From the NCBI GenBank assembly GCA_012026655.1, contig JAAILG010000467.1, forward strand, positions 1 through 64,000: 64,000 nt of DNA, given 5' to 3'. Both the position numbers and the translations under genes were made by a program. The stretch comes from Hydrolagus affinis (Eukaryota). Under the pieces are notes generated by a model. It had not been told where the DNA came from. It saw only the letters and a list, made by a program, of their open reading frames with translations, and searched no databases. Of this stretch, positions 1,770 through 48,243 are shown in pieces (position 1 is the stretch's first letter; every line of letters begins with the position of its first letter).

Positions 1770-1891
1770 TGACAACCACTCAAAGATATAATGCTTACCT
1801 GCGATTGGAAGGGTCCATTTTTTGAATGTGCAATTAACGAACTAGTCAGTGACAGTCCCCTCTAGTGCCAATACGTACCCAAATTCTCCAA

Positions 1892-2164
1892 CAAAAACAG
1901 AAGTCGTTGGGAACACTCAGCAGGTCAGGCAACATCTATGGAGAAATGAAAGTCAGTCAACGGTTCGGGACCACGACTCTGCGTCAGAACTGGGGCATGT
2001 GGCGAATAAGAGGCTTTTAAAGACCAAAAAAAATGTTGGGAGCCTCTCCCTTCCAACTTGCCCCAGTTCTGACGAAGGGTCGTGGATCCGAAACGTTGAC
2101 TCACTTTTCCCTTCTCCATAGATGCTGCCTGACCTGCTGAGTGTTCCCAGCGACTACTGTTTTG
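1892..2164. mobile_element. Fold-back (inverted) Penelope-like terminal repeat, copy 1
   Basis: Arms 1892-1997 and 2059-2164 (about 105 bp) are reverse complements around a 61-bp spacer. The same family occurs at 6966, 12316 and 31790. It contains the CTGAnGAAGGG...CCGAAACGT motif typical of PLE termini. Confidence 0.75.
2065..2101 (+). ncRNA. Minimal type-I hammerhead ribozyme motif (PLE-associated)
   Basis: AGTT-CTGACGA-A-GGGTC-GTG-GATCC-GAAA-CG-TT-GACT. It has the CUGANGA and GAAA cores, 5-bp stem II, stem I AGUU/GACU, and palindromic AACGUU in place of stem III. Predicted cleavage after GUU (2097). Confidence 0.65.
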
Positions 2165-4809: not shown

Positions 4810-5340
4810 ATGCCCCTCCGGATTGTGATGTTGCATGACTAACAGTACACCACAAAGATCTTACACACTTTTTGTGGTGCATACTGCAGGGTGCCTTTCA
4901 ATCCATTCAAGCTGTCCGATCTGTCTGAATCTTTAACTTCAGCATCTCAAATGTTCTTTCTGTGGTTGCTGTGGTGGCTTTGTGTGTCTTATTATACCAT
5001 TGCCCTGCTGGAGTTTGCAGATTATTGGGAGGCATTATGAGCCAGGATTTTAGAGCATAGTCATTGTCACCCAGAGACCAGCCCTGAAGACTGCTATCTT
5101 TCTTCAAGCCATTTGGGAGTGTGGATTAACGCAATGCAAAAGTTCATGGTTACCTCAGGATGCTCAGCACAAAACAAAAACATTTTTTTCTTTGGGAATC
5201 ATAAACTATGTTCACAAAACGGTCGCCCTGTGGGTCTGTATATGTATGATCCGCTGTATGTCAGAGCAATATTTTTTATGCTGCACGGAATTCCACGTGG
5301 GTCATACCTAGGATGTACAGAAGCCCCACAATTGCAATAA
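4810..5340 (-). pseudogene. PIF/Harbinger DDE transposase fossil (C-terminal half, frameshifted)
   Basis: Minus frames give GWSLGDNDYALKSWLIMP..QTPAGQWYNKTHKATTATTERTFEMLK, then LKGTLQYAPQKVCKIFVVYC*SCNI. This matches Harbinger/HARBI1-type motifs (LLGDSGY..W L.TP..YN..H..R..IERTFG.LK..GG.LQY.P.KV..I..C.LHN). Confidence 0.85.
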
Positions 5341-6965: not shown

Positions 6966-7146
6966 AAACGCCAAAATACTGCAGATGCTGGAAATCTGAA
7001 GCAAAAACAGAAGTCGCTGGGAACACTCAGCACGTCAGGGCAGCATCTATGGAGAAAGGAATGTCAACTCACTTCGTTGACTCACTTGCCTTTCTCCATC
7101 AATGTCGCTTGATTTACTGAGTGTTCCCAGCGACTTCTGTTTTTTT
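6966..7146. mobile_element. Fold-back Penelope-like terminal repeat, copy 2 (centre deleted)
   Basis: aaatactgcagatgctggaaatctgaagcaaaaacagaagtcgctgggaacactcag ... ctgagtgttcccagcgacttctgttttt. Same arms as copy 1; the hammerhead core is missing. Confidence 0.75.
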
Positions 7147-11681: not shown

Positions 11682-12000
11682 ATAATACTAATAATAATCA
11701 TTGCATTTGATATAACACTTTCCGCAGCTTCTAGACATCTCAAACTGCTTCACAGCATATACTGTAAAGTGAATTGACTGTATATTTTGTGGGCGAAATG
11801 TGGCAGCCAATTACACACAGAAGTATCCCACAAACCATCATGGAATGAAGTGATCAATATATTATTGTGTTTTTTTCTTGAGGGATTATTATCAGGCATG
11901 TGGAGTAAGAAAACTTGTTCAAGGTATCGTCCTGCCTGGAATTGAAACCAGGTCTCTTGCTTGCAAGGTGAGTGCTCTAACCATTGAGCTACAGGACTCC
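11682..12000 (-). mobile_element. tRNA-derived SINE (SINE2-1_CM-like), full length
   Basis: Head ggagtcctgtagctcaatggttagagcactc..ttgcaag..ggtttcaattcc (A and B boxes), conserved body, (TTA)n tail. Confidence 0.92.
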
Positions 12001-12315
12001 TCAATTTGTATCCTATGCTTGAAAAAGTATGAATATTGAATTAATTATTAGTTGTCGAATTGTTCAGATTACAATTGAAAACCTTCCTCTTCGACCATGC
12101 CTATGGTCAGCTTCCATTTACTCTGGCTTCAGATCAAACTACTCCATTGATAAGCGCTCTGAGTTGCTACTCCATGTACTGAAGAAATGCAAGTTATTGT
12201 TGAATTTGGGCAGTTGATATATTCATTAGGAATGTAAAGATCAGGCTAATAGTTTCAAATATCTTTCTCTTGTTCTAATCTTATGCAGACATATGCAAAT
12301 ATGTACATATGGAAT

Positions 12316-12547
12316 AAAACCAGAAGTTGCTGGAGAAACTCAGCAGGTCAGGGTCAGGCAGCATCCATGGAGAAAGGAAAAAGAGTGAATGTTTCGGGTC
12401 TACAACCCTTCATCAGAACTGGGGCTTGTAGACCTGAAACGTTGACTCTTTTTCCTTTCTCCATGGATGCTGCCTGACCTGCTGAGTTTCCCCAGCAACT
12501 TCTGTTTTTGTTTCAGGTTCCCAGCATCTGTAGTAATTTGTGTTTTG
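12316..12547. mobile_element. Fold-back Penelope-like terminal repeat, copy 3
   Basis: Near-perfect inverted arms (cagaagttgctggagaaactcagcaggtca.. / ..tgacctgctgagtttccccagcaacttctg). The minus strand carries CTGATGA-A-GGGTT-GTA-GACCC-GAAA at 12384-12420. Confidence 0.8.
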
Positions 12548-28874: not shown

Positions 28875-29170
28875 CTGTAGCTCGGTGGTTAGAGCATTCG
28901 CCTTGCAAGCGGGAGAACTGGATTCAATTTCGGGCTGGGCGAAACCTTGGGCGAGTTTCTTTACTCCACATGCCTGATAATAATCCCTCAAAAGAAAATT
29001 GGTCATTTGAATCCACCACTGTTTGTGGGACACTGCTGTGTGCAATTGGCTGCCACATTTTGCCCATAAATATGCAGTCAATTCACTTTACAATATATTC
29101 TGTGAAGCTCTTTGCAACATTTCGAAGACATGTGAAGCACTACTTCAAATGAAAGTATTGTTAATATTTT
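28875..29170 (+). mobile_element. SINE2-1_CM-like SINE, full length
   Basis: ctgtagctcggtggttagagcattcgccttgcaagcgggagaactggattcaatttcg head (tRNA-Ala-like TGC loop), body tttgtgggacactgctgtg. Confidence 0.92.
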
Positions 29171-47190: not shown

Positions 47191-47338
47191 CTGTTTGTGG
47201 GACACTTCTGTGCGTAATTTGATGCCGCCTTTCGCCCACAAATATACCATCAATTCGCTTGATAGTATATTCTGTGAAGCGTTTTAAGACGTCTAGAACA
47301 TGTGAAAATCGCTATATCAAATGCAAGGGTTATTATTA
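47191..47338 (+). mobile_element. SINE2-1_CM-like 3' half
   Basis: ctgtttgtgggacac..ttcgcccacaaatata..tatcaaatgcaagggttattatta. Confidence 0.9.
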
Positions 47339-47895
47339 CAACAACAACAACTTCGATTTATATAGCGCCCTCCACCCCAGACGGCGTCTCAGAGCGCTTC
47401 ACAATAGCGGATCCCAGGACCGAGCCAGGGGCAGGGGTAGGAAGGTGACCAAAGGCACAGTCAAAGAGAAAGGTCTTCAACTGGGACCTGAAGCTGAGAA
47501 AAGATGGGTCGAGGAGAAGGTAGTGAGGAAGGGAATTCCAGTGCCTCGGGGCATAGTGGCTGAAGGCACGGCCGCCAAGGGTGGAGCAGAGGATTCGGGG
47601 AACATGGAGGAGGCCAGACCCAGTGGAGCGAAGGCAACGGGTGTTGGTTTGAGGAGAGAGGTCAGAGAGGTAGGGGGTGCAGAGGAGTGGAGGGATTTGA
47701 AGACGAGGGTGAGGATCTTGAAGTCGATCCTCTCTGGGACAGGGAGCCAGTGAAGTCTGGCAAGGACTGGGGTCATGGGGGAGCAAAGTTTGACGCGGGT
47801 GAGAACGCGGGCGGCAGAGTTCTGAATGAGCTGGACTCTGTGGATTGTGGAGGAGGGGAGACTGGCGAGGAGGGCATTGGAATAATCTGAAGTAG
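47339..47895 (-). mobile_element. L2 LINE 3' 550 bp (ORF2 C-terminus + UTR, one frameshift)
   Basis: DYSNALLASLPSSTIHRVQLIQNSAARVLTR..TPVLARLHWLPVPERIDFKILTLVFKSLH, then YLSDL..RAFSHYAPRHWNSLP..SFRSQLKTFLF; (GTT)n tail. Confidence 0.95.
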
Positions 47896-48094
47896 TCTGC
47901 ACCACTTGGTGCTGTGAACCTGAAGTAAGCAACAGAGACCAGCTTTGAATGGCTATTGTTGTTGCAACTTTTAGAGAATATCCGGCACTTTTCACTCCTT
48001 GGTGCTGATTTATATGAATGATATAGAAGCTCGGTGATTCAGAATACATTTGTACAATCTGAAATTGCAGGATCTGGTGACAGCAATCACTTAC

Positions 48095-48243
48095 AATAAT
48101 AATAGTCCTTACATTTGATATAGCACTTTTCACGTCTTCTAGACGTCTCAAAGCACTTCACAGAATATACTGTAAAGTGCACGGTCTGTATATTTGTGGG
48201 CGAAACACGGCAGCCAGGTGCGCACAGCAGTGTCCCACAAAAC
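48095..48243 (-). mobile_element. SINE2-1_CM-like 3' half
   Basis: Tail plus body to gcagtgtcccacaaa. Confidence 0.9.

What the first reader, a model, noticed from the sequence alone, without database searches (positions are those of the whole stretch)
2065..2101. Complete minimal hammerhead ribozyme inside a fold-back element
Seen: AGTT CTGACGA A GGGTC GTG GATCC GAAA CG TT GACT. All conserved hammerhead core bases are present (CUGANGA, GAAA, UH). Stem II has 5 bp with one G-U. Stem I is AGUU:GACU. Stem III is reduced to one A-U pair inside the palindrome AACGUU. Known: Penelope-like retroelements carry such minimal type-I hammerheads, reported to cleave as dimers through the palindromic stem III. 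Inference: a potentially self-cleaving RNA motif sits here. In a read-through transcript, the upstream inverted arm (1892-1997) would base-pair over it and silence it, acting as a built-in antisense switch.
Basis: partly seen in the sequence, partly recalled or inferred. Interest (0 to 1): 0.7.

Follow-up and report, generated by a model that had tools for sequence, protein, structure and literature searches.

The report
Relic hammerhead in Penelope retroelement stub
The self-cutting-RNA motif is really there, but it is one of thousands of copies of the end of a known kind of jumping gene (a Penelope-like element), and the mirror-image arm beside it is likely a routine by-product of insertion that is predicted to keep the motif permanently folded shut rather than act as a switch.

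Summary
The motif at 2065-2101 is as described: a complete minimal type-I hammerhead. It lies in the 3' end (pLTR) of a high-copy Penelope-like element. The genome holds 6,464 exact matches to an adjacent 29-nt anchor and 1,238 to a tight hammerhead pattern, and longer copies carry RT and GIY-YIG coding sequence upstream. The fold-back is the published head-to-head insertion form, seen at 36 of 87 sampled loci. The upstream arm is a second copy with a broken core. Among copies, core bases decay like neighbouring bases (4.4% vs 4.8%); 33 of 66 keep an intact core, so an intact core here shows no selection. A distant relative keeps the core with compensated stems, so the active lineage was likely under selection. 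The switch reading is not supported: the hairpin beats the ribozyme fold by about 50 kcal/mol, and the motif is predicted to misfold even without the arm. One family-level lead: 47 of 93 copies start at the ribozyme's front edge, only 4 near its cut site. The scan has reported this family before in this genome, and that pile-up in other genomes.

The parts
2065..2101 (+). Minimal type-I hammerhead motif, all core bases present, H17 = U, wobble pairs in stems I and II
2041..2164 (+). Direct arm: 5'-truncated 3' end (pLTR) of a Penelope-like element, without the optional tail
   Evidence: the same unit lies about 230-300 nt after the GIY-YIG stop in longer copies
1890..2027 (-). Inverted arm: second 5'-truncated pLTR copy, head to head; 104 of 125 columns identical to the direct arm
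1956..1992 (-). Decayed hammerhead of the inverted arm (A9 and A15.1 lost, two stem II changes)
2028..2040 (.). Seam between the arms: an A run plus a short patch matching the inverted arm; a similar seam occurs at one other locus (L197)
2063..2070 (+). Family position where 5' ends of short copies pile up (initiator-like by the recalled YYANWYY consensus; candidate RNA start); this copy itself extends past it
   Evidence: 177 contig loose ends at 2066 in run X4
7003..7144 (.). Second fold-back of the same family, both arms too short to hold the hammerhead
12313..12512 (.). Third fold-back of the family; minus arm has core boxes but a broken palindrome and stem I, plus arm starts inside stem II, tail on one side

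Best explanation
The motif is the minimal hammerhead in the end piece of a high-copy Penelope-like retroelement, and this locus is likely a dead two-armed stub whose ribozyme is predicted to be folded shut. Shown: the unit is the pLTR of an element coding RT, a Cys-rich linker and a GIY-YIG endonuclease; the two arms are head-to-head truncated copies; copies lose core bases at the neutral rate. Inferred: the element's RT copied the RNA twice from start points 65-100 nt 3' of the hammerhead cut site and the two short copies were joined at their 5' ends during insertion; the stub has since decayed. In the active parent the hammerhead likely cut the RNA only with a partner copy or the element's protein (as published for other PLEs). 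In any read-through RNA from this locus the upstream arm is made first and would form a roughly 120-bp hairpin over the motif, so no cleavage is expected.
For: Copy number: 1,238 exact matches to a tight hammerhead pattern, 2,511 to a looser one, 6,464 to a 29-nt anchor outside it, reversed-pattern controls 0. Parent: the unit follows the endonuclease exon in 17 of 20 protein-found loci and 19 of 20 long-ORF loci (two loci overlap between the sets). L186 has inverted pLTR + RT + EN + pLTR; its RT hits RVT_1 at E 3e-6 (below cut-off), 210 longer relatives, and its C-terminal piece aligns with the Pfam GIY-YIG region of P0016 (38%, E 5e-37). Fold-back: 42 of 93 anchor-picked copies (36 of 87 loci) have an inverted copy upstream, 0 downstream, 0 direct; of 34 close fold-backs 28 have the tail on one side, none on both, 20 have a 9-16 nt flanking repeat. 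This matches the insertion form in 10.1101/2021.04.23.441226 and PMC3846280. Decay: core vs non-core mismatch 21/482 vs 59/1224 outside CpG (p 0.80), 19/108 vs 45/266 at CpG (p 0.88); 33 of 66 cores intact. Folding. Lineage-level selection: L191 (44% EN identity) keeps the core with different but paired stems I and II about 110 nt after its EN.
Against: This copy has neither tail nor target-site duplication (best shared flank word 7 nt, not adjacent), unlike most fold-backs. Pfam did not hit the local endonuclease fragments directly. No intact full-length parent was found, and none was searched for exhaustively. Only 1 of 5 distant relatives shows an intact hammerhead (2 damaged, 1 without downstream DNA, 1 none). 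Folding results are equilibrium predictions. One other locus shares the seam, which a strictly one-off origin does not explain. The insertion's right junction is also present in run X4 with 15 differences in 470 nt, so it is old and shared; retention by selection was not tested.
Confidence: 0.9

Rival explanations
1. The fold-back is a regulated antisense switch: the upstream arm silences an otherwise active ribozyme, depending on where transcription starts.
For: The + arm has a full core while the - arm has lost it; the hairpin is predicted to cover the whole motif.
Against: 50 kcal/mol gap, so one state only; misfolding by 5.9-6.6 kcal/mol without the arm; stem II paired at P>0.5 in only 2 of 22 sampled copies folded with their own 3' flank; half of all copies keep the core by chance; fold-backs at 36 of 87 loci; no host gene found by Pfam in 225 of 228 long open frames.
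Confidence: 0.03
2. The whole fold-back is a small non-autonomous unit that was itself copied at least once (passenger retrotransposition or DNA-level copying).
For: The seam pattern occurs at exactly 2 places in the genome, here and L197; the two align over 198 nt at 81% across the seam with unrelated flanks, and both are followed by the same 8 nt.
Against: n = 2; no derived arm substitutions shared on inspection; the seam patch can be explained by repeated template slippage onto the first arm; no TSD at either locus; seams of other fold-backs all differ. Even if true the hammerhead would still be a passenger.
Confidence: 0.3
3. This copy is latently active: transcribed from inside the seam, it cleaves in trans with another family transcript or with PLE protein.
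For: Full core; the isolated 37-mer folds into stems I and II (P 0.54-0.98); family sequence is abundant in poly(A) reads of another organism (6,044 and 5,534 reads laid from X5, X6); an Anolis PLE hammerhead cleaves when its protein is added (PMC11167929); GUU is listed as a cleavable triplet (PMC3138052).
Against: The intermolecular helix III is worth only -1.7 to -3.5 kcal/mol; published min-HHR monomers show no cleavage and dimers little (PMC4209133); parent copies seen are broken; no reads on this locus's unique flanks in X5/X6, though these are from another organism.
Confidence: 0.07

Closest known systems
[quoted passage not shown]
   Same: Core boxes, extra nucleotide between 9 and 10.1, G10.1-C11.1, palindromic 15.2-16.2, short helix I, thousands of dispersed single motifs, some pairs on opposite strands 100-700 bp apart.
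   Different: Family sequence differs; the passages and the two searchable supplement files name no cartilaginous fish (one file not searchable). H17 is U in 62 of 66 copies here.
Endonuclease-positive Penelope-like elements, Neptune/Nematis type with Zn-finger linker; inverted 5'-truncated copy, one-sided tail, TSD (10.1101/2021.04.23.441226 and PMC3846280, passages read)
   Same: RT + C-terminal GIY-YIG in longer copies; head-to-head inverted pLTR; one-sided 30-40 nt tail in the family; TSD-like repeats in 20 of 34.
   Different: This locus is ORF-less, about 275 bp, and lacks both tail and TSD.
Anolis Poseidon element PAc (Frangieh et al. 2024, PMC11167929; parts 1-2 of 4 read)
   Same: Hammerhead just upstream of two internal RT start points that define the tail; uncut RNA is the main template, matching the lack of copies starting at the cut site here (4 of 93).
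   Different: PAc is active and of another clade; a pile-up of 5' ends at the ribozyme's front edge is not mentioned in the parts read.
Non-LTR retrozymes (10.64898/2026.07.22.740005; part 1 of 5 and passages read)
   Same: Non-coding, PLE-derived, type-I hammerhead.
   Different: Retrozymes are head-to-tail tandems with a hammerhead in each unit; 0 of 93 copies here are in direct tandem.

Membership tests
min-HHR of PLEs | Core C3-A9, G12-A15.1, U16.1, H17 | tested here: met
min-HHR of PLEs | Extra nucleotide after A9 and G10.1-C11.1 pair | tested here: met
   A2076; G2077-C2089
min-HHR of PLEs | Palindromic helix III positions | tested here: met
   2092-2097 is its own reverse complement
min-HHR of PLEs | Located in the pLTR of a PLE | tested here: met
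   17 of 20 and 19 of 20 EN loci
min-HHR of PLEs | Compensatory stem changes between families | tested here: met
   One relative, L191, of 5 fetched; within this genome only one-sided changes were seen
min-HHR of PLEs | Self-cleavage as dimer or with protein | not testable with these tools
   needs an in vitro assay
EN+ Penelope-like element (parent family) | RT followed by C-terminal GIY-YIG endonuclease | tested here: met
   L186; RT hit below Pfam cut-off, EN assigned through a full-length relative
EN+ Penelope-like element (Neptune/Nematis type) | Zn-finger motif in the RT-EN linker | tested here: inconclusive
   Cys-rich motif visible in translations; no tree against named clades was built
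EN+ PLE insertion unit | Adjacent inverted 5'-truncated copy, head to head | tested here: met
   this locus and 36 of 87 loci
EN+ PLE insertion unit | Tail on one end and target-site duplication (both optional in print) | tested here: not met
   absent at this locus; family: tail on one side 28 of 34, flanking repeat of 9 nt or more 20 of 34, not checked one by one
Non-LTR retrozyme | Head-to-tail tandem units, each with a hammerhead | tested here: not met
   0 of 93
MITE-like mobile hairpin family | Many copies with the same length, seam and TSD | tested here: not met
   seam at 2 loci only, no TSD
Antisense conformational switch | Two folds close in energy | tested here: not met
   gap 50.2 kcal/mol

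The most novel reading that the evidence does not exclude
The element's RNA begins at the ribozyme's front edge: half of all short copies stop there because reverse transcriptase runs off the start of an uncut RNA, so these stubs are strong-stop-like products and the hammerhead sits at the very 5' end, where cutting would remove a leader of about 33 nt and so separate RNA used for copying from RNA that is cut.
Probability: 0.4. Interest if true: 0.45.

Novelty: new member of a known kind. Interest (0 to 1): 0.15.

Why it matters
As a single locus it matters little: it is one of thousands of relic pLTR ends, and both the ribozyme and the head-to-head form are published. Its value is statistical. 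The family's many stubs record how Penelope-like elements insert, and the pile-up of 5' ends at the ribozyme's front edge, not at its cut site, gives a cheap test (5' RACE or CAGE, RT run-off) of where the RNA starts and whether cleavage has any part in mobilisation, which is still open. It also warns that an intact core in a repeat copy is weak evidence of function: half the copies keep it.

Tried and rejected
Rfam: no hammerhead family at either threshold; weak miRNA hits only reflect the hairpin. Pfam on the local endonuclease fragments and PDB on the RT: no hit. Host gene: 225 of 228 open frames of 62 aa or more were scanned; three weak hits below cut-off, no host gene identified, short exons would be missed. 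Sequencing runs: no RNA holder listed, which is no evidence on expression; laid reads and contigs of X1, X5, X6 fall only on the repeat and come from other copies or organisms, and no pile of molecule ends was listed, which fragmented short-read libraries cannot show well. A wider lay to look for spliced host transcripts gave no result, so intronic or intergenic position stays open. Spliced-RNA origin of the 5' pile-up: a pyrimidine tract and CAG precede the site, but truncated copies share no upstream exon and many keep bases 5' of the would-be junction; rejected as main cause, not excluded. Other hammerhead families in 684 kb held (overlapping loci, chosen for this family): none, all 62 hits belong to this family. 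Segmental duplication with L197: no flank homology at E<1e-3. Literature: 0 papers hold both 'hammerhead ribozyme' and 'Callorhinchus'; searches listed none on this family by title or abstract start; this covers the open library only.

Full report
OBSERVATION. The quoted sequence is at 2065-2101. Stem I is 2065-2068 with 2098-2101, the core is CUGACGA (2069-2075) and GAAA (2090-2093), an extra A sits at 2076, stem II is 2077-2081 with 2085-2089, and U2096-U2097 precede the predicted cut. A descriptor of my own found this one hit in the window and 4 hits in 100 shuffled windows. Rfam has no hammerhead match here. The arms share 104 of 125 aligned columns.

WHAT IT BELONGS TO. The window has two more fold-backs of the same repeat. 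In the window's genome a tight hammerhead pattern has 1,238 exact matches, a looser one 2,511, and a 29-nt anchor 3' of the motif 6,464; reversed controls 0. Walking upstream from copies led to coding sequence with the LYIGET motif. The unit lies about 230-300 nt after that endonuclease exon in 17 of 20 loci found by protein search (two end at contig ends, one is cut) and 19 of 20 loci chosen for long frames (two loci are in both sets; one has the spacer deleted). L186 shows inverted pLTR, RT, linker, endonuclease and pLTR in order. Its RT hits RVT_1 at E 3e-6, below cut-off, and has 210 longer relatives, the 120 listed being 737-1,358 aa. Its C-terminal piece aligns at 38% with the region of P0016 that Pfam calls GIY-YIG. 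So the repeat is the pLTR end of an endonuclease-positive Penelope-like element. A Cys-rich linker points to the Neptune/Nematis type as defined in 10.1101/2021.04.23.441226 (passages); no tree was built. That the host is a cartilaginous fish rests on recall of similar repeats and on unchecked earlier notes.

THE FOLD-BACK IS ROUTINE. I fetched 90 loci around the first listed anchor matches (longest contigs only, not a random draw from 6,464); after dropping 3 duplicates, 87 loci gave 93 copies. 42 copies at 36 loci have an inverted copy upstream; none has one downstream and none a direct neighbour within about 1.5 kb. Two-armed loci have two chances to be picked, so 41% may be a little high. 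Of 34 close fold-backs, 28 carry the tail on one side, none on both, 6 on neither, and 20 have a 9-16 nt repeat in the flanks (not verified singly). This is the insertion form described for PLEs: an adjacent inverted 5'-truncated copy, a one-sided 30-40 bp tail, head-to-head orientation (passages). The window copy lacks tail and TSD.

IS THE RIBOZYME UNDER SELECTION? Not among copies. In 54 copies spanning the motif, core and non-core positions mismatch the majority at 21/482 and 59/1224 outside CpG (Fisher p 0.80) and 19/108 and 45/266 at CpG (p 0.88); five subfamily or indel columns were left out. 33 of 66 copies reaching the core keep it whole. An intact core at this locus is therefore a coin toss. 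At lineage level selection is likely: of 5 distant relatives, L191 (44% endonuclease identity) has the same core and extra A about 110 nt after the gene with different but paired stems I and II; L193 and L194 have damaged versions, L192 lacks downstream DNA, L195 showed none. This agrees with Cervera and De la Pena (PMC4209133, parts 1-2 of 4 read).

WOULD IT CUT, AND IS THERE A SWITCH? The 301-nt region folds into one hairpin (-192 kcal/mol, z -22.8) in which all nine hammerhead pairs have probability 0.0. Forcing the ribozyme fold costs 50.2 kcal/mol; without the arm it still costs 5.9-6.6, because 2074-2079 pairs with the pyrimidine run at 2109-2114. In 22 sampled copies folded with their own 3' flank, stem II exceeded P 0.5 in 2. 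Only the bare 37-mer prefers the hammerhead skeleton. Helix III needs a partner and is worth -1.7 to -3.5 kcal/mol; none lies nearby on the + strand. In print, min-HHR monomers did not cleave and dimers did so weakly, and the Anolis PAc hammerhead cleaved only with its protein and was not needed for insertion in vitro (PMC11167929, parts 1-2 of 4). A switch needs two reachable states; the prediction gives one. These are equilibrium models, not assays.

EXPRESSION. Poly(A) reads of another organism cover the repeat on both strands (6,044 and 5,534 reads from X5 and X6, one sample) and none of the unique flanks, so the family is present in RNA there but this locus was not testable. Pfam found no host gene in 225 of 228 long frames.

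FAMILY-LEVEL LEAD. 47 of 93 copies begin at the 2061-2070 equivalent (47 of 77 that start inside the reference, p 1e-20 against uniform), only 4 at 2095-2101 near the cut. In 42 truncated copies from an overlapping set, match to the family falls from 83% at 2066 and 62% at 2064-2065 to 19% at 2063. X4 shows 177 loose ends at 2066. Upstream sequences are unrelated, so a shared spliced exon is unlikely. The site fits the initiator consensus (recalled); D. virilis Penelope has an internal TATA-less promoter (PMC2377424, passages). The simplest reading is RT run-off at the start of an uncut RNA; stalling at RNA structure is the main rival. I noted this before looking at earlier notes; the scan has reported it in other genomes. 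The extra cap G that one note reports was not seen.

A LOOSE END. The seam between the arms occurs at exactly one other place (L197). The two loci align at 81% over 198 nt, have unrelated flanks, and are followed by the same 8 nt. A common parent is plausible but n = 2.

VERDICT. A real minimal hammerhead, a new member of a published kind, in a relic head-to-head PLE stub; the antisense switch is not supported. Interest 0.15. Absence from print rests and the supplement search (one file not searchable; figures and bioRxiv supplements not seen), which may name this family.

Noticed in passing
family-wide; window-equivalent 2061-2070 (loci L051-L170): 5' ends of 47 of 93 copies pile up at the hammerhead's front edge, only 4 near the cut site; candidate RNA start.
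   Followed up: partly
L197 (G000:C7779:18422-18615) and window 2012-2047: Only other locus with the same seam; unrelated flanks, same 8 nt after the right end; possible copied fold-back.
   Followed up: partly
L024 395-1660; L186 3520-6000; L176; L190: Longer insertions with an inverted pLTR directly ahead of a 5'-truncated RT/EN copy, the textbook PLE layout.
   Followed up: yes
family pLTR, window-equivalent 2074-2079 with 2109-2114: A competing hairpin that sequesters the core is predicted in many copies; it could be why such ribozymes need protein help.
   Followed up: partly
family stem II and 3' arm: At least two subfamilies differ at 2081/2084 and in the 3' arm; the stem II change is C-G to U-G (one-sided).
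   Followed up: partly
window 11927-11998 (-) and 28875-28937 (+): tRNA-like Rfam hits, probably heads of tRNA-derived SINEs.
   Followed up: no
window 4910-5125 (-): Weak DDE_Tnp_4 hit (E 2e-4, below cut-off): likely a Harbinger-type transposase fragment.
   Followed up: no
window 47223-48157: Overlapping open frames of 176-226 aa on both strands with no Pfam hit.
   Followed up: no
L191 2103-2148: Intact minimal hammerhead with compensated stems and H17 = C after the endonuclease gene of a distant PLE in a metagenome contig.
   Followed up: yes
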